The notes under the pieces were generated by a model. The model did not search any database. It was not told the DNA's origin and was given only the letters and a program-made list of their open reading frames with translations. 64,000 bases of DNA, from the sequence record OM782452.1; one strand, given 5' to 3'. Origin of the DNA: Pseudomonas phage vB_PaeP_TUMS_P10. Made by a program: the position numbers and the translations under genes. Positions 22,268 to 43,032 of the stretch are shown here, one piece after another. The stretch's first letter is position 1. Each line of letters opens with the position of its first letter.

Positions 22268-22304
22268 GGGGAACTCCTTGGTTTGAATATTTCGGGGTAA
22301 GGGT

Positions 22305-22669
22305 GGAGTGCTCTGGTCTGGACCCCGTTGCGGGGCGTGGGGAGGACCGTTCACAACGGGCCAGAGCACTCCCTTATGTCTACGAAACATAGACATAAGA
22401 AAGCCAGCATGAAGCTGGCTATCTTGAAAGGGTGGGTGAACTCAGAGGCTAGGAGACAGGAAGTTCTACGAGGGGATTCCTCTGGTTCACCATTGACTGT
22501 GGCTGTATGTCGTTGGTTGTTGCTGTGTGTGATCACTATGCTATCTATGGCACTGCAAGTCAACAGTAAAAAGAGTCCTACAAGCCAAACCATTACGAGA
22601 ACTGGCTAAAAAGAGAATGAGTTCAGGGAACTCTTGTAGGACTAAGGCTAGGTATTCACTCTTTTTACT
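22305..22669. other. hairpin-dense noncoding region (five long perfect or near-perfect stems): candidate RNA processing/regulatory or structured RNA
   Basis: Stems: 22305-22316/22361-22372 (12 bp, enclosing two 5-bp/3-nt-loop mini-hairpins); 22373-22399 (10-bp palindrome); 22402-22420 (7 bp); 22435-22491 (13 bp with 1-nt bulge); 22565-22584/22633-22669 (12+8 bp). Confidence 0.5.
22381..22420 (-). terminator. terminator-like hairpin on minus strand
   Basis: On the minus strand, AGCCAGC-UUCAU-GCUGGCU is followed by UUCUUAUGUCUAUGUUU. Confidence 0.4.
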
Positions 22670-23063
22670 GGGGACTCAAGTCCTGGGGAGGATCTTGGTT
22701 TTCACGCATGCTGGAACCAGCAATGCGACCATTGCGGAAGTCCACCGCATCTACCGAGTTTTCGGGATACGGATTTTCGCCTTGTTCCCCCAGGAGGCCG
22801 ACACGTACACCGTGCAGGTAGGCAGCCGTGGCATCCATACCGGGACGGTAGGGGGGATTGAACTCCGCATCTGTGGAGAGGCCGAGTTCGGATACGGCCA
22901 GCAGGATTGCGTCTTGGTGGACACCGCCTTTGACCTTGATTTCTGCGATCAGCGGAGCGGTGAAGCCAATGACTACATCCTTGGCTGAGTAGACCGTGGA
23001 GGTGAACTGGAGGCCGCCACCGGTGTGGGTAACGAAGGACAGCAGGTATCGATTTTTCTTCAT
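22665..23063 (-). CDS. hypothetical protein
   Basis: 132 aa, AGGGGA RBS. Confidence 0.5.
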   Translation of the reverse strand: MKKNRYLLSFVTHTGGGLQFTSTVYSAKDVVIGFTAPLIAEIKVKGGVHQDAILLAVSELGLSTDAEFNPPYRPGMDATAAYLHGVRVGLLGEQGENPYPENSVDAVDFRNGRIAGSSMRENQDPPQDLSPQ

Positions 23064-29135: not shown

Positions 29136-29534
29136 TTAACCCTCGGGGTTGTCTTCCAACCAGCGGTTCAGGGAATCCCTGGCTTCCCTTACGTCCTGGT
29201 GCATCGACTTGCCGCCGCTGCGCTGGCCCAGGTTGAGCAGCTTCTTGCGTGCATGGTCGATGGCACCGGAGTTGTCGCAGGTGATCGGGAACAGGGTGTT
29301 CAGCCGGTACACGTCAAGCCAGGTCCACTCCTTGGGGATATCCCGACGGTAGCGGTTCTTCGGATCCACCTTGGGCTTGGTGTCCTTGGCTGCCGCTTTC
29401 ACGTATTCCTTGGGCAAGCCTACGATGGACACTCCGTAGACCGATCCCATGGAGGACATCTTGTAGAGTTCCCGGCAGAGGCCGCAGGTGGCTGTGGTGC
29501 TGTGATGGTTGTTGCACAGGGGGTGTTTGGTCAT
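29136..29534 (-). CDS. hypothetical protein (Cys/His-rich N-terminus)
   Basis: 132 aa with N-terminal CNNHHSTTATCGLC. Confidence 0.4.
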   Translation of the reverse strand: MTKHPLCNNHHSTTATCGLCRELYKMSSMGSVYGVSIVGLPKEYVKAAAKDTKPKVDPKNRYRRDIPKEWTWLDVYRLNTLFPITCDNSGAIDHARKKLLNLGQRSGGKSMHQDVREARDSLNRWLEDNPEG

Positions 29535-29956
29535 AGGGACTCCTTCTGTTTGTTGAGGTGGAAGATGGCTAGCTTAGCAGCAGCCATGTAGCGACGGGCT
29601 TGCCGGCTGTCCAGGGACATACCGGAAGCCAGCAGGTCTGTGCTCAGTTGAGGCTCCTTCAGGAGGCTGAACAGGCGCATGGCCGATAACGGCTTCTGGG
29701 AGCCTTCTGCGAGCGAAGCGATGCCCACGAGGACATCCTCTACCACCGGATCAACAAACATGTTGTCGAGGCCCTGGAGGCGCTTTGCATGAGGGTTCTG
29801 TACCCAACGGGTACGAGGGCCGCCGATGGCGTTCTTGTTCAAGCCATGGAAGCGAATGGTATCTGTGCTTGCCTTACCCAGGGAAGCCTTGAGGTTGGGC
29901 ATGCTGTCGATGGGGAAATCGATGACGGGAATGTCGGCTGCGGTCAGCTTTTTCAT
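29531..29956 (-). CDS. hypothetical protein
   Basis: 141-aa first gene of the leftward block, AGAGG RBS. Confidence 0.45.
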   Translation of the reverse strand: MKKLTAADIPVIDFPIDSMPNLKASLGKASTDTIRFHGLNKNAIGGPRTRWVQNPHAKRLQGLDNMFVDPVVEDVLVGIASLAEGSQKPLSAMRLFSLLKEPQLSTDLLASGMSLDSRQARRYMAAAKLAIFHLNKQKESL

Positions 29957-30010
29957 GGGTAAAACCTCTGGTTAAAAAATGATCACGAAACGGTCTTATA
30001 TATAAAGGGG

Positions 30011-30307
30011 TCCACCCTCCCCCTCTTGAATTTACATTCAAGCCCCCGGAGGGGGCCGGGAGTCGGGTGGACCCTGGGAAGGTCTCTCCCCTGACCTTCT
30101 CCCCCTACCCTGAGACGGGGTAGTGTCAAGGGGGATCGGCGCCAGCCGCACGCCCCCGCAGACACGGATCCCGTCGAGGGGTAGGGATATTGATTTACCT
30201 ATACCCCTATACCCTACCGGAGTCCGTGTCTCCCACTCGGGCTTCGCTGCGCTCACCGCTCGGGGGACACTACCCCGGTAGGGTATAGGGGGGAGGAGGG
30301 GGAGAGG
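30011..30307. repeat. GC-rich nested inverted-repeat region between divergent gene blocks
   Basis: Nested inverted-repeat pairs: 30011-30025/30288-30307 (C-rich/G-rich); 30104-30128/30266-30291 (12-bp perfect core cggggtagtgtc/gacactaccccg); 30158-30170/30219-30233; inner 30176-30188/30201-30220, which also carries a tataccc direct repeat. Local hairpins at 30076-30097 and 30104-30124. Confidence 0.7.
30042..30056 (+). promoter_or_regulatory. GCCCCC-GGA-GGGGGC mini-hairpin (6-bp stem, GGA loop)
   Basis: Perfect palindrome with the same GGA loop as the 54426 and 55463 palindromes. Confidence 0.3.
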
Positions 30308-30338
30308 GTTATACTGGGTAAAACAGGAGGACTTCCTA

Positions 30339-31613
30339 ATGGTAGACGTATGTAATCTGAACGGTACTGAGTGTGGTACTGGTTCTTGGAAAGGCCCGAA
30401 ACCGGGTGACCCGAACATGAACAATCTACTCCTGACGGCTACTCCGGCCTTCGGGGGTATCGATATCAACTGGACATGGCCTACGCTTAACCCAGCTGCG
30501 GTCAGTCAAACTATCCTCTGGAGAAGTATCACTCCGAATTTCAACGTAGCTACACGAGTAGCGGTTGTTCAGGGTAACTTCTACTTTGACAGGGTAGATG
30601 TCGAGATCAACTTGGATACCAGGTACTACTACTGGATTCAGATGCTCTCTATCAACGGTACTGAGGGTGAAGTCATCGGTCCGGCGAGTGCAACTGCACG
30701 ACCGCTCATTGGACAGATGATGGATATCCTTTCTGGTCAAATTGATGCTGGTGCTCTTGCACAGAACCTTCGTACTGAGATCGATCAGATCCAACTGAAC
30801 AAGTTGGGGATCACTCAGGAAGAACTTCTGCGTGCCCAGAATGACCAAGGTCTTGCTGTTCGCATCTCTGAGCTTGGTGCAAAGACTGACGATGCACTGG
30901 CACTTCTCCAAGAAGAAGTACGGATTCGTACTGATGCTGATGGTGCTCTGGTACACACGGTTAACACCATGTATGCCGACTTCAACGGGAACATTGCAGC
31001 CATCCAAACCGAGCAACAGGCTCTTGCTACCCAGGTCAGTTCACTGGCTTCGTCGGTAACGACACTGAACTCTACTGTGAACGGCAACTCTGCCTCCGGG
31101 CAGATTGGTTTGGTGACCAAGGTTACCCAGCAGGAAGGGAAGATGGCTGTCATGGAGTCTCAGTACTTCGTGAAGCTCCAGGCAGGCAATCTGGTTGGTG
31201 GTTTCGGTCTGTACAACCAGGGACAGACTATCGAGGCTGGTTTCGATGTGGATAGGTTCTGGGTTGGCCGGGCCAACGTTAAACGGAAGCCATTTATCAT
31301 CGATAACAACATCGTCTACATTGACGAGGGTGCCATCAACAAACTCACCTTCGACAAGTTGAGGGCACAGGATGGAAGTCTTATCGTTCAGAACGGTAAG
31401 ATTCAGGCTAAGTACCTTGAAGCAGACCAGATTGACGTTAGCAACATCCAATCCAAGAACTGGGTGTCGGAACGTCAAGGTTGGAGGTTCTGGGACAACG
31501 GTACTTACGAGCTTAACGGTACTGCCACTTCTGGCCGTACAGTCATCAAAGGCGGAGCTACACGAGTCTATGATGCTGCTGGTGTTCTCCGCGTAATCAT
31601 GGGGGTTTGGTAA
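30339..31613 (+). CDS. tail fiber protein
   Basis: 424 aa. N-terminal fibronectin-III-like region. Central coiled segment. C-terminal ...[18 protein letters not shown] resembles phage tail-fiber C-terminal domains. AGGAGG RBS. Confidence 0.55.
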
Positions 31614-32664: not shown

Positions 32665-35600
32665 ATGACCACCAAGGTGATCTTCACCTTCCATAACCCG
32701 GATGGTAGTCCACAGGCCGGAAAAGAGTTTTCCGTCCGACTGACCCGTCCGGGTATGAACGATGCGGATGACTGCATCGTCCTACCTGAAAGCTATGACA
32801 TGACCACGGATGCTCAAGGTCAGTTCACGATGGATCTGGAGGCAGCTACTTCGGCATACCGGGTTTCCGTAGTGGATGACGACTCGTTCGAGGATGATCC
32901 GTGCATTCGCACGTCGTTCACTTTCTACGTGCCGGACTCCCCCACTCCCGTTCATGTACAGGAACTGATCCTGCTGCCTCCGCCCACGTCTCTGCCGTGG
33001 GACGAGGAAGCCATGAACAAGATCACCCAAGCTGTCGTAGATGCACGCGAGGCCCGTGACGAAGCCGAAGGTCATGCTGATCGTGCCGAAGAGCAGGTAG
33101 ATCTGGCCAAAGCCGAGGTCGTTAAAGCCCAAGCTGAAGTCGTCAAGGCCAAGGATGAGGTGACCAAGGCACAGGCTGAAGTAGCTAAAGCTGCCCAGCA
33201 GGTTGAGCTTGCAAAGGTTGAAGTAGGTAAGGCGGGAGCCTCTGCTGCTGCGGCCAAGGTCAGCGAAACCAATGCCGCGAATTCCGCTGCTGGTTCTGCT
33301 GCTTCGGCGACTGCTGCGACCAACCAAGCCAACCGTGCGAAGACGGAAGCTGATCGTGCCGAATCCCTGGCAAACCAAGTTGCCGAGAAGGTAGAAGGCG
33401 GCAACCTACCTGCACTGGTAGGAATGAACGAAACCTTCACCTACGAAGGCGGCGAGGATCATTACAACTGGACCCGAACCGGTCCGGTGAATGTGTCTCA
33501 GCACACTGGTTTCATTCGGATTTCCAAAACCGATGCCTCCGGTTCCCGTGCTTTCATTCGAAAGTCTGTCGAGTTCCCGGATGGGCACTGGATCACCTAC
33601 TTCCGGGTGAAGACCCAGACGGGTACTGCTGCACAGAACAACTCGGCCCAGATCCGGTTCCTCTCTGCCGATGGCAAGGACTACACGGTTTACTTCAACA
33701 TCAATGCCAATGGCTTGGTGGAACCGAACACCATCCATATGCAAGGTAGCGAGGGTGGGGCACGTAATGCCGCCACCATGTTCACTGGCTTGAATACCGA
33801 AGCCTGGATGGACATGGCAGTAAAGTTCGATGCCGTGAACCGCCACATTGAACTCTTCCGCCGTATGCCCAATGGCACCTGGCAGAAGGGTGGCGGTCGC
33901 TTGATGGTGGACACGATCAAGCCTGCGATCATCGAGATCTCTTCCATGCCTGTCGCACCCAATGGGTGGTGGATGGACGTGGACTTCATCACGGTTTGCC
34001 GACCGAACCTCATCTGCTACGGCGACAGCATTGCTGCCGGTCAGAACGAGTACGGGGTAACCCGAGGTACTGCGGATTACCACAACAACCGTAACTGGGC
34101 AGGAACCTGGTTTGGCCAGTCCAGCCTGTATGCCACCAACCGGAACAACCTGGTTCTGGTCCAGGGTGTAGAGGGCCGGCGTACCTGGCAGTATCTGGAT
34201 AGCCTGGGTGAGATCGAGAACTCCGGTGTGAAAGTGGTGTTCCTGCATGCAAGCACGAACGACCACAAAGACGCCACCATGACCATGGCCAAGCGTACTT
34301 CGGACACCCAAGCCATCGTGGACCGACTGCATGCTGTCGGTGCTCAGGTGGTTCTGTTCAATGCCATGCAAGGCACCAAGTTGTTCAACGATTCGTTGGC
34401 CGAAGGGGTGACCAAGCTCAAGGCGTACACCGATCAGTGGTGGTCCGAGGAACTGCATAAGGTCACTGGTTTGGGACAGGTTCTGGACATCGCCCGTGTG
34501 GTAGGCAAGGACGGTTACTTCGACCCTGCTATCGCTGCGGATGACGGTCTGCACCTGACTGCTGCATCTGCGAAGAAGATCGCCGACAAGCTGGGGCAGT
34601 TCTACTCGAACTCCACTTCCATCAATGGTTTGGCTCCTCTGGAAAGCCCTGCGTTTACCGGTATTCCTACCGTTCCAACGCAGACTCCTTTCCTGCCTTA
34701 CGGCAAGCAGATCGCCAACACCGAGTACGTCATTACCTTCATTCAGGACTGGACCAGTAACTACGGTTACGGTGACCTGACGATGCGTAACAAGACCGGT
34801 GCTCAGATGGCAGCTGGTGGTGTTCGTAGTGGTTACTACTACGTTCCTGGGGATTCTTCTAACCCCCTACCGGGAAACATCTATGCATTCGTGCATCACA
34901 TGTCCTACGACAACAACAAGGGTTGGGAACTCTGGAACCAATGCTATTCCGACCGCATGTACATGCGTTATTCGAACAACCAGGGTGTCTGGCAAACTCC
35001 GGTGGAGGTGGTCACTGAGAAGTGGATGGATCGCAATAGCTTCATGACCCCACGGGTTACTGCGTTCAACCGTTTGCCCGTGGCTTCTGCTGCCGGTTAT
35101 GAAGGGGTTGTCCCCCTGCAAGCTGGGTCCAGTGGTGCATGGCGTAACTTGAACGCCGGTTCTGCCGGGATCGGGTTGCTGGGTGCTGCTACGGTCGAGA
35201 ATGCGTTGAACTACATCGGTGGTACTCCGAAGACGATGACCAGTCTGCGGTCCTACAGCGATGCCAACGCCATCCCGAATGAGTGTGGCTTCTACGGTGT
35301 TGGGATTGCACCCTGGGCGAACTTGCCTCCAGGTGTAACCTCCATCAACCCGGTGGGTTCTACCATCTACCATCAGGTTTACGATGCCAGCACTGCTACG
35401 CAGATCTTCATTCCTCGTACTTCGGATATCTGCTATTTCCGCCGTAAGGCTGCGAACGTCTGGAGTCCTTGGGTACGCTATCTGACCGATAAGCAGTTGG
35501 TAGGCACCACTACCAACAGCAGCACCGGGGAACCGAACGGTGCCATCATGGAAAGCGGTACAACTGCCAATGGCTGGTACATCCGATTCGCTGATGGGAC

Positions 35601-40534: not shown

Positions 40535-43032
40535 TGCTTACTCCTTTTCAGCATGTTTTGAAGCATATGGAAGGTTTCTTCCTTCGTTTCCGCCTGCTTG
40601 AGGAACTTGGTGGTCGAGTTCGAGCAAAGCAGGTTGAACATTGGGTAGTCCTTGATCAAGGTCACCAACTCCCGAACCTTTGTAGAAGGCGAGGCGGTAT
40701 CCAAGAACTCACAAGCACTCTCCAACTCCTTGTGGGCAGTGGAATACCGACGCAGGCTATCCCGATAGACACACAGCAGTTTCCATTTAGCCAACAACTC
40801 CGGAGACAGTTCCGTCTTGAAGCCGAGTGCAGTCCTCCACTCATTGGTTTCGAGAAGGTACTTGCAGATGTTGAACCCGGAATTGTACTCATCGTCCGGT
40901 TCGAATACCCGCTGAGCCGCTGCCCACGAAGAACCCATGTACTTCAACAGGATCTTCTTGTTGGTACGCACGAACTTCAGCATCTCCGCGTGTACATACT
41001 CCTCCAGGGTAGGCAGGCCCATGGCGACGAATTTCTTCTCGTCATGGATGCTGTGGGCGACTGCAACCCGGTCACCCCATACCTTCAGGACATGAACAGC
41101 AACCGCAGCGCGGAAACCAGGAAGTTCAGTCCGGGCATGGTAGGTGTTGGACTTGGAGAAGAGGTACGAGAAGGCCACGGGATTGTCAGTACGGTGTTCT
41201 GTACCGGTCTTGGCCAACTCCTGGCTGAAGTAGTCAGAAGCACGGGCGGTACTCAGGGTAGCGTAGCCGTCCATCTTCACCTTCTTGGCTTTGACCCGTT
41301 CAGCAGGCGGGATGTACTCGATTTCCTTGGTCAGGTCGAGGACAGCAACGTTCTCCAACGAATTGAAGTGGTTGCGGACCTCGGCCAAGGTCTTCGCACT
41401 ACGGGGAGTCACATACGTGAAGAAGTGAGTACGAACCCCCTTCTTGAAGTAATCCCCGTGCAGCGGGTGCTTGGCGATGCGTTCTTCGACGTTCTTGCTG
41501 CTGTGGGTGAGAACCACGATCCGTTCCTGGAAAGCATACAGAAGCAACGGCTGGATCGGATGGAACTCGGGAAGTGCAGTAGTACACAGCCAGTCCGAGT
41601 TATTAGCGATGGTAGTCATCTCCCGCAGGTGGGTAATAACGAACCGACGGGACTGCACCGGACCCATGAGCATGTCCTTCATGAAGATCTTGCGGAAGGC
41701 AGCAGACACATAGCTTCGGATGCTGTCAGCAGGACGCTCTGGCGGGCACTTGCGGTGCAGTCGAATCAGTTGACCCAGGAGAACCTGGTCTACATCCGGG
41801 CACTTGCGAAGCATACTCAACCGGTTAACCCGATCCTTGACCAGAATGGACTTTCCATTGGGCAGGCGCTTCACGACATCCGGACCCCGGAACGAGAAGA
41901 GCCAGAGGGCATGACCGGCTGCTGTGAGGATGGTATCCCCGATGATGTCCCCTGGTTTCAGGAACTCGTTCAGGGAAGCCTGGTTTACAGCAGAGAGGAC
42001 ACCTTGTTGCATGAGCCGGCTCCACTGCTCACAAGCCAATGCCTGCTCGTTGTTGTGCTTCAGCACCTGCAACATGGCCGCGTTGAGGTTGTGCTTCATG
42101 TAGGAGTCGAACTTCTCCAACAAACTATGAAGAGTCTTCTTGGTTGTGGGAACCATCGAGAGGGATTCCCGGCTGGGAGTCACTTCAATGGTGTTCGGCT
42201 GAGCCTTCAGCACCAGCACGGAGGTGTAGTCACCGGACAGGCGAATCCAGTCCTTGCAATCCTCGTACAGGTGCTCATAGTCCTCGTGATCCGCAACCGG
42301 GTAGATCACGTTGCCATACAGTACACAGATGGCGCCGGGCAAGTTGTCCGCGTACTGACCGCGAGCAATGAGGAAGCCGTTCTTGGCTTCTTCGATGGGT
42401 AAGGTAGGAACTACCTGACCGGAGATCTCCGCCAGCATGCCGCCATTGCGGATAACCCGGCGTGCGTTGTTCAGCATGGTATTCCGGCTTACCTGGTTTC
42501 CATCCAAGGGGATGGACACCTTCAGTCCTGGATTGTCGCAAGGAATGGAAAGCATCGGAGTGATGGTCGGCAAGCCATTACGCTCAGCGGAAGACTTGCT
42601 GATTCGGTAGATGGTACGGATACCCCCGTTGGAGGATTCCACCTGGAAAGAATCTACCAGGGCGAAGGGAGACTTACAGCCCAGGCCGAAGCCACCGGTG
42701 ACTTCCGAGTTCTTCTGCTTGGTGGAACCACCCAGGGTTCCATAGTGGTCGCCCATCTTGTCCTTGGGGATGCCCTTACCGAAGTCTTCTACGACGAACT
42801 CATTGTCCTCGGAGAAGTAGACCTTGATCGGCGTGTGCTTATTCCCCGCTTCGATGTGGGCATCCCAGGCGTTGCACAGGACTTCACGTACTACAGCCAT
42901 GGGCTTATCGGAGTACAAGGTATCCGACAGCATGTGGAAGAAGGCCGCGTCAGCATTGACCTTCATCTGGATCTTTTCTTCGCCGCCAATGACAGCATGA
43001 GTGATCCGATCACTCGTATGAGTTACTTGCAT
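40510..43032 (-). CDS. rIIA-like protein with GHKL/HATPase_c domain
   Basis: N-box REVLCNAWDA and G-rich boxes in the first ~150 aa. 840 aa. AAGGAG RBS. Confidence 0.6.
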   Translation of the reverse strand: MQVTHTSDRITHAVIGGEEKIQMKVNADAAFFHMLSDTLYSDKPMAVVREVLCNAWDAHIEAGNKHTPIKVYFSEDNEFVVEDFGKGIPKDKMGDHYGTLGGSTKQKNSEVTGGFGLGCKSPFALVDSFQVESSNGGIRTIYRISKSSAERNGLPTITPMLSIPCDNPGLKVSIPLDGNQVSRNTMLNNARRVIRNGGMLAEISGQVVPTLPIEEAKNGFLIARGQYADNLPGAICVLYGNVIYPVADHEDYEHLYEDCKDWIRLSGDYTSVLVLKAQPNTIEVTPSRESLSMVPTTKKTLHSLLEKFDSYMKHNLNAAMLQVLKHNNEQALACEQWSRLMQQGVLSAVNQASLNEFLKPGDIIGDTILTAAGHALWLFSFRGPDVVKRLPNGKSILVKDRVNRLSMLRKCPDVDQVLLGQLIRLHRKCPPERPADSIRSYVSAAFRKIFMKDMLMGPVQSRRFVITHLREMTTIANNSDWLCTTALPEFHPIQPLLLYAFQERIVVLTHSSKNVEERIAKHPLHGDYFKKGVRTHFFTYVTPRSAKTLAEVRNHFNSLENVAVLDLTKEIEYIPPAERVKAKKVKMDGYATLSTARASDYFSQELAKTGTEHRTDNPVAFSYLFSKSNTYHARTELPGFRAAVAVHVLKVWGDRVAVAHSIHDEKKFVAMGLPTLEEYVHAEMLKFVRTNKKILLKYMGSSWAAAQRVFEPDDEYNSGFNICKYLLETNEWRTALGFKTELSPELLAKWKLLCVYRDSLRRYSTAHKELESACEFLDTASPSTKVRELVTLIKDYPMFNLLCSNSTTKFLKQAETKEETFHMLQNMLKRSKQCQKKSAS

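What the first reader, a model, noticed from the sequence alone, without database searches (positions are those of the whole stretch)
30011..30307. 300-bp GC-rich nested inverted-repeat structure between divergent replication and tail modules
Four concentric inverted-repeat pairs centre near 30197. These include a 12-bp perfect pair (cggggtagtgtc at 30116-30127 and gacactaccccg at 30266-30277), G-rich and C-rich outer arms, tataccc direct repeats and local hairpins. The region lies exactly where the leftward replication operon and the rightward tail-fiber operon diverge, and no ORF explains it. Candidates are an origin of replication or replication-initiation site next to the primase/exonuclease genes, a divergent promoter/operator hub, or a structured leader RNA. 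The G-runs at 30288-30307 could also form a G-quadruplex just upstream of the tail-fiber RBS.
Basis: seen in the sequence. Interest (0 to 1): 0.7.

Follow-up and report, generated by a model that had tools for sequence, protein, structure and literature searches.

The report
Hairpin-built divergent control region, N4-like phage
The palindromic stretch is the control region between a LUZ7-like phage's replication genes and its tail-fibre genes: its two ends are promoters already mapped in phage LUZ7, and between them lie two conserved, mirror-image DNA hairpins, not described in the literature I could search, that carry the same cap as this phage family's promoters and as known priming sites, which makes them a testable candidate replication origin.

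Summary
The coordinates are exact, the region folds far better than shuffled sequence (z -5.4 to -7.4), and it holds the three strongest local inverted repeats in the 64-kb window.

The window is a LUZ7-like N4-type Pseudomonas phage. Published LUZ7 maps explain both ends:
- Middle hairpin promoter PM2: TSS at window 30035, - strand, driving gp60-exonuclease-primase.
- Weak terminator T37: 3' end at 30004.
- Sigma70-like late promoter PL8: -10 at 30310-30315, TSS about 30324, + strand, driving the tail fibre gene.

The middle 190 bp is not one concentric structure. It is two stem-loops of about 85 nt, B (30103-30186) and C (30204-30291). Both are present in 14 lineages with unrelated stems. 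C shows 0 of 88 variable columns within the genus, against 16% in the flanking genes. B and C are mirror images. Each is capped by the DNA mini-hairpin d(GCGNAGC): B on the + strand, C on the - strand. No mapped LUZ7 transcript covers them, and the B-C spacing ranges from 106 to 486 nt.

Best reading: they are DNA-level, protein-recognised hairpins. Most likely they are outward-facing priming sites (origin, about 0.35). Supercoil-driven promoter insulators are the main rival (about 0.25). The G-quadruplex idea is not conserved.

The parts
29531..29956 (-). gp60 homologue (141 aa), first gene of the PM2 operon (gp60, gp61, exonuclease, primase)
   Evidence: ORF list. LUZ7 annotation and synteny. 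LUZ7 TU45/46 run from PM2 through orf60-63/64. Family of unknown function: phrog_3360, no Pfam match. AlphaFold model pLDDT 82 with no significant fold match. Unrelated to N4 gp40/gp41.
29957..30003 (-). Conserved gp60 leader and RBS (on the + strand: GGTTAAAAAATGATCA, CGAAACGG, TATATATAA)
   Evidence: Sequence motifs conserved in all lineages. 6.4% variable columns within the genus against 16% in the coding sequence. Function not established.
30004..30025 (-). T37: short GC hairpin followed by TTTATATA; weak terminator or attenuator with its 3' end at 30004
   Evidence: LUZ7 T37 at 35304(+), termination efficiency 0.02 at 10 min and 0.35 at 20 min. Mapped to the window. The equivalent GGGG...CCCC + T-rich site is flagged by the terminator scan in Littlefix and phCDa.
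30008..30074 (.). Domain A: 10-bp perfect outer stem (30008-30017 with 30065-30074) enclosing hairpin 2 and the PM2 hairpin
   Evidence: Inverted repeat I12. Folds. An equivalent outer stem with different sequence occurs in other lineages, for example 14 bp in L026. 2.7% variable columns within the genus.
30025..30042 (-). Hairpin 2 (cttgaat-ttac-attcaag) with the PM2 transcription start at 30035 in its loop
   Evidence: The PM2 50-mer ends at window 30035, and all early and middle 50-mers in the table end in G, so the TSS is taken as the last base. A hairpin of unrelated sequence is present at this position in all 15 sequences.
30042..30056 (-). PM2 middle-promoter hairpin: GCCCCC-GGA-GGGGGC on the + (template) strand, TCC loop on the coding strand
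   Evidence: LUZ7 PM2, TSS 35273(+), validated by primer extension. Covariation in 10 lineages: 100% of cells paired, 5 of 6 pairs changed on both sides, loop invariant, slid controls 30-58% paired. Recovered by the GNA-hairpin scan along with PE1, 3, 4, 5, 7, 8 and PM3.
30076..30102 (.). C-rich linker, hypervariable
   Evidence: 45% variable columns plus indels among 7 Luzseptimavirus genomes. Appears unconstrained.
30103..30186 (+). Hairpin B (84 nt), capped by the mini-hairpin GCGCCAGC at 30139-30146 on the + strand
   Evidence: Fold z = -4.3. 6% variable columns. A + strand GCGNAGC, GCGNNAGC or CCGNAGG cap at the B apex in all 17 sequences examined. Its apex is the reverse complement of C's apex in 12 of 12 lineages.
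30187..30203 (.). Short A/T-rich centre between B and C
   Evidence: 17% variable columns. About 30 nt in PA26. Replaced by a promoter-plus-terminator mini-unit in the P. fluorescens-group phages and by a GIY-YIG gene in L013.
30204..30291 (-). Hairpin C (88 nt; 17-bp perfect basal stem), capped by overlapping mini-hairpins GCGAAGC (30241-30247) and GCGCAGC (30246-30252) on the - strand
   Evidence: Fold z = -5.1. 0 of 88 variable columns in 7 genomes, P about 2e-7 at the coding-sequence rate. Hairpin with unrelated stems at the same position in 14 lineages. 5 compensatory pairs within the phCDa clade. - strand GCGNAGC cap in all sequences. Not a host repeat.
30288..30308 (+). G-rich tract occupying the -35 and spacer position of PL8
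   Evidence: Lies within the PL8 upstream 50-mer. A canonical G4 motif is present only in the LUZ7 genus.
30310..30330 (+). PL8 late promoter: -10 TATACT at 30310-30315, TSS about 30324, RBS AGGAGG at 30325-30330
   Evidence: LUZ7 PL8, TSS 34978(-), SAPPHIRE p = 3.8e-5, TU44 covers orf59. Mapped to the window. The motif GGGG(T)nTA(t/g)A(c/a)T recurs across lineages. No canonical -35, so the simple sigma70 scan finds nothing.
30339..31613 (+). Tail fibre gene (LUZ7 gp59 homologue), first gene of the late cassette
   Evidence: ORF list. Pfam Phage_Tail_Tip and phrog_496. Annotation in relatives.

Best explanation
The region is the head-to-head control region between the middle-stage replication operon (leftward) and the late tail-fibre operon (rightward) of a LUZ7-like, N4-type phage. 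It is built almost entirely from DNA hairpins.

SHOWN, by transfer from LUZ7 experiments plus conservation:
- Left end: the hairpin-type middle promoter PM2, read by the phage RNA polymerase II. Its GGA-loop hairpin is at 30042-30056, transcription starts at 30035 in the loop of a second hairpin, and the weak terminator T37 lies 31 nt downstream.
- Right end: the sigma70-like late promoter PL8, with a -10 element, no -35 element, and a 5'UTR of about 14 nt.

SHOWN, by comparison of 14 lineages: the 190 bp between the promoters holds two stem-loops of about 85 nt, B and C. Their structure is conserved but their stem sequences are not. They are mirror images of each other. Each is capped by the exceptionally stable DNA mini-hairpin d(GCGNAGC) or d(GCGNNAGC), on the + strand in B and on the - strand in C. 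Neither is covered by any mapped LUZ7 transcription unit.

INFERRED: B and C work as DNA, not RNA. They would be extruded from the negatively supercoiled DNA that builds up between two diverging polymerases, or formed on single strands, and recognised by a lineage-specific protein. The same cap marks the template-strand hairpins of this phage's own promoters and of primase-recognised initiation signals. By the PM2 rule (cap on the template strand, start about 14 nt away), B would direct initiation leftward (about 30125) and C rightward (about 30263). The mechanism I commit to is therefore a pair of outward-facing priming sites, that is, a bidirectional replication start zone beside the exonuclease and primase genes.

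Probabilities: promoters and terminator as stated, about 0.9. B and C are DNA-level recognised hairpins, about 0.6. They are specifically priming or origin sites, about 0.35.
For: Identity and synteny: 98% to phages Ka3 and PA152, 91% to LUZ7. The same gene order in LUZ7, PA26, Littlefix, 98PfluR60PP, phCDa, metagenomic lineages and L049/L051.

Mapped features: LUZ7 PM2, PL8 and T37, with TU44 and TU45/46, placed on the window.

PM2 hairpin covariation: 100% paired, 5 of 6 pairs compensatory.

Structure significance.

Constraint within the genus: C 0 of 88 variable columns, A 2.7%, B 6%, against 16-17% in coding sequence and 45% in the linker.

Mirror symmetry: inverted alignment beats direct alignment in 12 of 12 lineages (summed scores 156 against 90, with direct at shuffle level), extending to 36/43 in PA26 and 38/45 in L016.

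Cap motif and strand rule: holds in every sequence, against a background of 1.14 sites per kb per strand.

Motif properties (PMC13037366): only GNA loops form the mini-hairpin, with any N; DNA Tm 70-76 C against 39 C for the RNA version; resists SSB; found in the G4, ST-1 and alpha3 origins, in RSF1010 ssiA and in N4 vRNAP promoters.

The GNA-hairpin scan recovers 8 mapped LUZ7 promoters on the template strand.

DNA rather than RNA: G.T pairs are only about 5% of stem pairs, and the two strands fold about equally well. No TSS, TTS or transcription unit lies inside B or C, and the late antisense units end at LUZ7 35519 or beyond. No Rfam family matches.

The exact 10-nt motif occurs once in the window.
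Against: There is no direct evidence of replication initiation.
- Cumulative GC skew has no extremum at 30.2 kb.
- Coliphage N4, which has the homologous primase and exonuclease, has no comparable gap or hairpins at this position. The element is therefore not family-wide, as a primase-recognised origin might be expected to be.
- There are no iterons, and the A/T-rich centre is only 17 nt. In relatives it is replaced by a small transcription unit or a gene, so it is not a conserved unwinding element.
- B and C always abut a promoter (PM2-to-B 71-99 nt; C apex to -10, 41-61 nt), while the B-C distance is free. That fits promoter-linked regulation just as well.
- In the LUZ7 genus the caps are not canonical promoter hairpins: C has only the 2-bp mini-hairpin and B a 4-bp stem with a tetraloop. 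No start sites were detected there.
- The promoter mapping comes from LUZ7 (91% identical), not from this phage.
Confidence: 0.5

Rival explanations
1. B and C are supercoil-driven extrudable cruciforms that insulate or time the two head-to-head promoters. Negative supercoils from gyrase and from PM2 transcription extrude them. Extruded C distorts or sequesters the -35/-10 region of PL8 and keeps the tail-fibre operon silent until replication relaxes the template. B would buffer the torsion needed for PM2 hairpin extrusion.
For: Each hairpin abuts a promoter. The base of C lies from 21 nt upstream of the -10 element to overlapping it, depending on lineage. [quoted passage not shown] Crick-strand genes in LUZ7 are strictly late. 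The element occurs only in lineages that have this head-to-head junction and is absent from N4.
Against: Any palindrome would serve as a torsion sink, yet all 88 nt of C are invariant within the genus and a specific strand-oriented cap is conserved. The position of C relative to the -10 element is not fixed. The other 32 late promoters show no such hairpins. Stems with 27-60-nt imperfect tops extrude poorly from duplex DNA (my own knowledge).
Confidence: 0.25
2. The conserved cores (about 40 nt around TCGCTNCGC and its inverse) are duplex operator sites for a lineage-specific DNA-binding protein, possibly gp60. This protein would regulate PM2 (autoregulation) and PL8. The flanking stems would be incidental or would aid binding.
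For: gp60 is co-distributed with the element and absent from N4. Its confidently modelled C-terminal half is helical with an invariant RQARRYMAAAKLA segment, and it gives weak matches to winged-helix or LuxR-type domains. Two inverted copies flanking divergent promoters is a classic operator layout. The core co-evolves within each lineage.
Confidence: 0.1
3. B and C act as RNA structures in read-through transcripts, as RNase III or RNase E processing sites, stabilisers or bidirectional terminators.
For: The - strand RNA fold has z = -7.4. The paper states that middle-stage transcripts collectively cover the genome. Dyad symmetry would give similar structures in transcripts from either direction.
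Against: No TSS, TTS or transcription unit covers B or C in LUZ7, and the late antisense units stop inside orf60. G.U-type pairs are few and show no strand bias. The cap motif is stable as DNA and far less so as RNA. No U-tracts follow the stems. No Rfam match.
Confidence: 0.05
4. The hairpins are relics or terminal repeats of a mobile element (REPIN- or MITE-like), or a scar from acquisition of the tail cassette.
For: The region is the junction of a horizontally acquired, inverted tail cassette (Ceyssens 2010). The inverted copies flank variable cargo: a small transcription unit or a GIY-YIG gene.
Against: There is a single copy per genome, always at the same site in 14 lineages. The element is under stronger constraint than the neighbouring genes. 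C's 17-nt arm has only 11 scattered exact matches in 596 Gb of bacterial genomes, none in Pseudomonas.
Confidence: 0.03
5. The G-runs at 30288-30308 form a G-quadruplex that controls tail-fibre expression.
For: A canonical G3+N1-7 x4 motif is present on the + strand in the window and in LUZ7.
Against: It is absent from all the other lineages examined. Part of the tract is the 3' arm of hairpin C. The segment shows 17% variable columns.
Confidence: 0.02

Closest known systems
LUZ7 promoters PM2 and PL8 and terminator T37 (Putzeys et al. 2022, ONT-cappable-seq)
   Same: These are homologous sequences. The 50-nt upstream regions align to the window with few mismatches, and the genes, orientation and spacing are the same.
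   Different: They were mapped in LUZ7, not in this phage. The paper does not describe the hairpins between the two promoters.
N4-family single-stranded hairpin promoters (N4 vRNAP P1-P3; LUZ7 PE and PM promoters)
   Same: A GC stem capped by a G-N-A loop on the template strand. The PM2 hairpin is a validated member. B and C carry the same cap in the orientation that would give divergent starts.
   Different: B and C are about 85-nt stem-loops rather than 4-7-bp hairpins. In the LUZ7 genus their caps have only 2-4 Watson-Crick pairs. No transcription start is mapped at them.
Single-strand initiation signals: RSF1010 oriV ssiA/ssiB (RepB' primase) and the G4, ST-1 and alpha3 complementary-strand origins
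   Same: DNA hairpins containing a GNA mini-hairpin that are recognised on single-stranded DNA. In RSF1010 two signals lie on opposite strands of one origin (PMC13037366).
   Different: Those signals are about 40 nt long, and in RSF1010 they are accompanied by iterons and an A/T-rich segment. Here there are no iterons, the hairpins are longer, the genome is a linear dsDNA phage, and priming is untested.
Dyad-symmetric viral origins between divergent transcription units (HSV-1 oriL/oriS, SV40 core origin) - from my own knowledge
   Same: Mirror-image recognition elements around an A/T-rich centre, located between diverging promoters beside replication genes, with hairpin-forming arms.
   Different: In those origins the spacing of the halves is fixed. 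Here it varies from 106 to 486 nt. No initiator protein has been identified.
Phage T7 primary origin (phage-RNAP promoters followed by an A/T-rich stretch) - from my own knowledge
   Same: A promoter for a T7-like phage polymerase (PM2) is followed within 31 nt by RNA 3' ends (T37) and then by a conserved TTTATATATAA stretch.
   Different: The A/T stretch is only about 12 nt long. A priming role for PM2 transcripts is speculation.

Membership tests
N4-type hairpin promoter (vRNAP / RNAPII) | Short GC-rich stem (4 bp or more) with a 3-4-nt loop that reads G-N-A on the template strand | tested here: met
   PM2: 6-bp stem with a GGA loop, 100% paired in 10 lineages with 5 of 6 pairs compensatory. 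B: 4-bp stem with a GCCA tetraloop. C: only the 2-bp mini-hairpin in this genus, but 4-5 bp in L016, L022, L024 and 98PfluR60PP.
N4-type hairpin promoter (vRNAP / RNAPII) | Mapped transcription start (usually G) 13-15 nt downstream of the loop centre | tested here: inconclusive
   Met for PM2 through LUZ7 data: TSS 35273 lies 14 nt from the loop. Not met for B or C: the LUZ7 tables show no TSS there, although very short primer RNAs would probably escape that method.
Sigma70-type late promoter | -10 and -35 hexamers with 16-18-nt spacing, and a mapped TSS | tested here: inconclusive
   The -10 TATACT and a TSS mapped in LUZ7 (PL8, SAPPHIRE p = 3.8e-5) are present. There is no recognisable -35 (the G-rich tract occupies that position), and the simple consensus scan finds no site. 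This is consistent with N4-type activator-dependent late promoters.
DNA mini-hairpin d(GCGNAGC) / d(GCGNNAGC) / d(CCGNAGG) | Two closing G-C pairs, a sheared G.A pair, and a free middle base | tested here: met
   The motif is present at the PM2, B and C apices in all 17 sequences with a fixed strand rule. N varies (C, A, T; CC, GC, CA) while G-C-G and A-G-C are fixed. The rule is taken from PMC13037366. Actual folding was not measured.
Single-strand initiation signal / replication origin | Primase- or polymerase-dependent priming at the hairpin; a replication start mapped at the site | not testable with these tools
   This needs marker-frequency or nascent-strand mapping and in vitro priming assays.
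Single-strand initiation signal / replication origin | Accessory origin features: iterons, a conserved A/T-rich unwinding element, a strand-composition switch | tested here: not met
   Only trivial direct repeats are present. The A/T centre is 17 nt long and is replaced by other cargo in relatives. The GC skew has no extremum.
Intrinsic terminator (T37) | GC hairpin followed by a T-run, with measured 3' ends | tested here: met
   The - strand sequence GGGTGGACCCC followed by TTTATATA ends at 30004. LUZ7 termination efficiency is 0.02-0.35. Equivalent sites are flagged in Littlefix and phCDa. The window's own site is too short for the scanner.
G-quadruplex | Four G3+ runs with loops of 7 nt or less, conserved among relatives | tested here: not met
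   The motif is present in the window and in LUZ7 only and is absent from all other lineages examined.
REPIN / MITE-like mobile hairpin repeat | Multiple dispersed copies in host or phage genomes | tested here: not met
   There is a single locus per phage genome. The 11 matches in bacterial genomes are at chance level and none is in Pseudomonas.
Known RNA families (Rfam 15) | Covariance-model match at or above the gathering score | tested here: not met
   The only matches are sub-threshold miRNA and snoRNA hits caused by the hairpin shape (20.9 bits against a threshold of 76). There are none in relatives.

The most novel reading that the evidence does not exclude
B and C are the replication origin of the LUZ7/LIT1-type N4-like phages, which to my knowledge has not been identified. 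Two outward-facing, mini-hairpin-capped DNA stem-loops are extruded between diverging promoters and read as single-stranded initiation signals by the phage's own hairpin-reading machinery (primase-helicase, or the virion or middle RNA polymerase acting as primase). In that case the family's unusual hairpin-promoter grammar would also be used to start DNA synthesis.
Probability: 0.3. Interest if true: 0.7.

Novelty: new variant of a known kind. Interest (0 to 1): 0.5.

Why it matters
N4-like phages are the model for transcription from extruded DNA hairpins, and several of them (LUZ7, LIT1, PEV2, DEV relatives) are candidates for phage therapy. As far as I know, and as far as the searchable literature shows, no replication origin has been mapped for them.

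This locus offers a precise target of about 190 bp with specific point mutations to make: the G.A pair of each cap. If B and C are priming sites, the family uses a single DNA-hairpin code for both transcription and replication. If they are torsion-sensing insulators, they would be a natural example of cruciforms timing a late promoter.

In either case, engineered phages should not disturb this segment, because it is more conserved than the genes around it.

Tried and rejected
- Rfam at a permissive threshold gave only sub-threshold miRNA and snoRNA look-alikes. There are no tRNAs.
- The simple sigma70 scan finds nothing in the window's gap, because PL8 lacks a -35 element.
- GC skew is uninformative, with no extremum.
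- MAFFT plus RNAalifold on hairpin C from all lineages failed: 0 pairs, because the stems share no sequence. I replaced this with per-lineage folds against shuffles and with the alignable phCDa clade.
- The primase gives only a sub-threshold DUF3987 match, so no origin-binding domain can be named.
- The apical motif is not dispersed as a genome-wide binding site: 8 one-mismatch hits against 4.8 expected.
- The other head-to-head junction in the window (PL2, about 52230) is compact, has no paired promoter and has no hairpins, so it cannot discriminate between the insulator and origin models.
- Host REPIN origin is rejected.
- N4 has no equivalent at this position. Its two strongest inverted repeats lie in the tRNA gap.
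- Searches for a mapped origin in N4-like phages, or for a prior description of this element, found nothing relevant.
- I did not build a covariance model. The inverted-versus-direct alignment test and the motif and strand table answered the same question.
Full report
**What the window is.** The 1.3 kb around the finding is 98% identical to Pseudomonas phages Ka3, Ka4 and PA152, 94.5% to KPP21 and 91% to LUZ7 (Luzseptimavirus, Schitoviridae, N4-like). It aligns at about 67% with about 70 Litunavirus genomes. The window runs as the reverse complement of the LUZ7 record. The finding lies in the 382-bp gap between the gp60 homologue (29531-29956, - strand; followed by gp61, exonuclease and primase) and the gp59 tail-fibre homologue (30339-31613, + strand). 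Ceyssens et al. 2010 (PMC3715699) describe the tail cassette as a module embedded in reverse orientation inside the replication module. This gap is therefore the head-to-head junction of that module.

**Check of the observation.** Window 30005-30325 folds with z = -5.35 (+ strand as DNA), -6.35 (- strand as DNA) and -7.43 (- strand as RNA), and 0 of 100 shuffles fold as well. In a scan of all 64 kb, 3 of the 5 top-ranked local inverted repeats (ranks 1, 2 and 5) fall in this gap. No known RNA family, tRNA or conserved ORF accounts for it. The minimum-energy structure is three adjacent domains rather than one concentric hairpin: A (30008-30074), B (30103-30186) and C (30204-30291).

**The ends are promoters mapped in LUZ7.** The supplementary tables of Putzeys et al. 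2022 (bioRxiv 10.1101/2022.03.18.484859) list three features in the homologous LUZ7 gap:
- PM2, a middle promoter: TSS 35273(+), validated by primer extension, driving TU45/46 (orf60-63/64).
- PL8, a late sigma70-like promoter: TSS 34978(-), driving TU44 (orf59).
- T37, a weak terminator at 35304(+): efficiency 0.02 at 10 min and 0.35 at 20 min.

Aligning their 50-nt upstream sequences to the window gives these positions:
- PM2 hairpin GCCCCC-GGA-GGGGGC at 30042-30056, with the TSS at 30035 (- strand).
- T37 3' end at 30004.
- PL8 -10 TATACT at 30310-30315, TSS about 30324, RBS at 30325-30330.

The tail-fibre 5'UTR is only about 14 nt.

**Domain A across lineages.** I collected the same gap from 14 lineages in at least four genera. 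These are Luzseptimavirus, Litunavirus, Littlefixvirus and Shizishanvirus, plus metagenomic and Logan contigs. All have the tail fibre gene on one strand, 363-744 nt of non-coding DNA, and then a gp60 homologue on the other. On the transcribed strand the order is always the same:
1. a G-rich tract;
2. the PM2 hairpin with an invariant TCC loop;
3. a second hairpin of unrelated sequence whose loop holds the TSS;
4. a GGGG...CCCC hairpin followed by TTTATATA (T37);
5. a strongly conserved leader.

The PM2 stem is 100% paired in 10 lineages. Five of its 6 pairs have changes on both sides, while slid controls give 30-58% pairing.

**The centre: hairpins B and C.** Hairpin C is found at the homologous position in essentially every lineage, with stems that share no sequence. 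Examples of the basal stems are CCCCTATACCCTACCGG in the window, GCCTATCCACGCA in PA26, GTGTCTTTACAACG in L022 and GCCATAAAGGTTTCAGT in L013. The z-scores are mostly between -3 and -7. Within the alignable phCDa clade the consensus fold has 27 pairs, 5 of them with compensatory changes.

Variable columns among seven Luzseptimavirus genomes:

| Segment | Variable columns |
|---|---|
| Flanking genes | 16-17% |
| gp60 leader | 6.4% |
| Domain A | 2.7% |
| Linker 30076-30102 | 45% |
| Hairpin B | 6% |
| Centre | 17% |
| Hairpin C | 0 of 88 (P about 2e-7 at the coding rate) |

G.T pairs make up only about 5% of stem pairs, and the two strands fold about equally well. That argues against a one-strand RNA.

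**Mirror symmetry.** In 12 of 12 lineages the apex of C aligns better with the reverse complement of B's apex than with B itself. The summed scores are 156 against 90, and the direct scores are at shuffle level. Within a lineage the match extends far beyond the shared core, to 36/43 in PA26 and 38/45 in L016. The distance between the two apices is nevertheless 106-119 nt in the P. aeruginosa phages, 210-238 nt in the P. fluorescens-group phages and 486 nt in L013. In the P. fluorescens group the centre holds a sigma70-like promoter followed by a strong intrinsic terminator. In L013 it holds a GIY-YIG endonuclease gene. B and C are therefore independent modules. B lies 71-99 nt from the PM2 loop, and C's apex lies 41-61 nt from the PL8 -10 element.

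**Identity of the conserved apical motif.** The core TCGCT-N-CGC in C is, on the other strand, GCG-N'-AGC. This is the 'mini-hairpin DNA' consensus d(GCGNAGC) or d(GCGNNAGC), with d(CCGNAGG) also accepted. It has two G-C pairs and a sheared G.A pair. The review PMC13037366 reports the following:
- Of all 64 triloops only G-N-A forms the mini-hairpin, with any N (Tm 70-76 C).
- The RNA counterpart is far less stable (39 C against 76.5 C).
- It resists SSB binding.
- It occurs in the complementary-strand origins of phages G4, ST-1 and alpha3, in RSF1010 ssiA (RepB' primase) and in N4 vRNAP promoter hairpins.

In all 17 sequences examined, the motif lies on the + strand at PM2 (CCGGAGG) and at B's apex (window GCGCCAGC, 30139-30146). 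It lies on the - strand at C's apex (window GCGAAGC and GCGCAGC, 30241-30252). Almost none occur elsewhere in the gap, and the window background is 1.14 sites per kb per strand. A scan for GNA-capped hairpins with 4 or more perfect pairs recovers the mapped LUZ7 promoters PE1, 3, 4, 5, 7, 8, PM2 and PM3, all on the template strand. B and C use the same cap but are not canonical promoter hairpins in this genus. By the PM2 rule they would point outward: B to the left and C to the right.

**DNA rather than RNA.** The LUZ7 tables contain no TSS or TTS inside B or C. No transcription unit crosses them, and the late antisense units from PL9 and PL10 end at 35519 or beyond, inside orf60. Together with the DNA-specific cap and the lack of strand bias, this makes an RNA-level role unlikely.

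**What did not help, or argues against an origin.**
- The cumulative GC skew has no extremum here.
- Coliphage N4 has no gap at this position. Its strongest inverted repeats lie in the tRNA gap, which by gene order corresponds to LUZ7's orf69/70 small-RNA hotspot.
- The primase gives only a sub-threshold DUF3987 match.
- C's 17-nt arm is not a host repeat: 11 chance-level matches in 596 Gb, none in Pseudomonas.
- A canonical G-quadruplex motif next to PL8 exists only in the LUZ7 genus.
- I found no published origin map for N4-like phages and no prior description of B or C in the searchable library.

**Mechanism.**

*Shown, by transfer from LUZ7 plus conservation:* the region is a divergent promoter region. 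PM2, its structured leader and T37 drive the replication operon, and PL8 drives the tail-fibre operon.

*Shown, by comparative analysis:* between the promoters lie two structure-conserved, mirror-image stem-loops with mini-hairpin caps, under strong constraint and untranscribed in LUZ7.

*Inferred:* they function as DNA hairpins, either extruded from the negatively supercoiled DNA between diverging polymerases (the twin-domain model, from my own knowledge) or formed on single strands, and they are recognised by a lineage-specific protein. I commit to outward-facing priming sites, that is a bidirectional replication start zone, at about 0.35. The grounds are:
- the cap's precedents in ssi signals and in this family's own initiation hairpins;
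- the opposite-strand arrangement;
- invariance over the full length of C;
- the neighbouring primase operon.

The main rival, at about 0.25, is that they are torsion-driven cruciforms that insulate or time the two promoters. The review PMC4496689 reports that an extruded N4 hairpin silences rrnB P1 in a gyrase-dependent manner. Duplex operators for gp60 (about 0.1), RNA structures (about 0.05), mobile-element relics (about 0.03) and a G-quadruplex (about 0.02) are less likely.

**Verdict.** The promoters are already known. The B/C pair is, as far as I can find, undescribed, and I class it as a new variant of known DNA-hairpin initiation or recognition signals. Interest 0.5.

Noticed in passing
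window 22299-22614 (- strand): LUZ7's published 'small-RNA hotspot' between orf69 and orf70 maps here. It comprises promoter PL13, terminators T46-T48 and sRNA1-3. PL13's upstream 50-mer is 100% identical at 22529-22578, and a 19-nt inverted repeat lies at 22558-22576 and 22658-22676. By gene order this corresponds to N4's tRNA gap. It is an alternative place to look for an origin.
   Followed up: partly
L017 2140-2268; L012 2215-2240; the same position in L010, L016, L022, L024-L026: In the P. fluorescens-group phages the space between C and B holds a compact transcription unit pointing the same way as gp60. In L017 it is TTGACA-17-TATATT (11/12) followed about 70 nt later by a strong intrinsic terminator. 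This is a candidate small RNA of about 90 nt, absent from the LUZ7 and LIT1 groups, with no Rfam match.
   Followed up: partly
L013 1877-2365 (+): A 162-aa GIY-YIG endonuclease gene (Pfam 28.4 bits against a cut-off of 22.6) is inserted between hairpins B and C in one metagenomic lineage. This stretches the B-C distance to 486 nt.
   Followed up: yes
window 29957-30003: The gp60 leader (GGTTAAAAAATGATCA ... CGAAACGG ... TATATATAA on the + strand) is conserved at the sequence level in all lineages, more so than the N-terminus of gp60 itself. It begins right after the T37 3' end. It could be a translational operator, an unmapped A/T-rich promoter, or an RNA-to-DNA switch zone.
   Followed up: no
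window 29531-29956 (-): gp60 is a small protein found only in phages that carry this element. It has an invariant RQARRYMAAAKLA segment. The AlphaFold model is confident (pLDDT 82) but matches no known fold.
   Followed up: partly
L030 (phage N4) 32702-32795 and 32933-33045: N4's two strongest local inverted repeats (24 and 27 nt arms, 88-89% complementary) lie in its only large non-coding gap, interleaved with tRNA genes. ARAGORN finds four tRNAs there (Asn, Ser, Thr, Pro), whereas Ceyssens 2010 mentions three.
   Followed up: partly
window 42409(+), 25831(-), 35398(-), 22844(+), 59150(+): The scan for GNA-capped hairpins recovers eight mapped LUZ7 promoters and also finds unmapped candidates. 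These include AGGTAGGAACTACCT at 42409 and, at 35398 on the - strand inside the tail-fibre cassette, CTGCGTAGCAG, which is identical to the PE3 promoter hairpin.
   Followed up: no
window 30076-30102: The C-rich linker between domain A and hairpin B is hypervariable within the genus (45% variable columns, 4-5-nt indels). This contrasts sharply with the near-invariant hairpins on either side.
   Followed up: yes
L014 and L015 (IMG/VR contigs of 41 and 72.9 kb): Two independent metagenomic contigs begin about 84-116 nt upstream of the gp60 match, that is, inside this hairpin-rich gap. This suggests assembly or sequencing breaks at the structure.
   Followed up: no
hit H19 (PP852688.1): A record named 'Photobacterium phage TEMp-D2' (two such records appear in the counts) matches like a typical Litunavirus of P. 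aeruginosa. The host label may be wrong.
   Followed up: no
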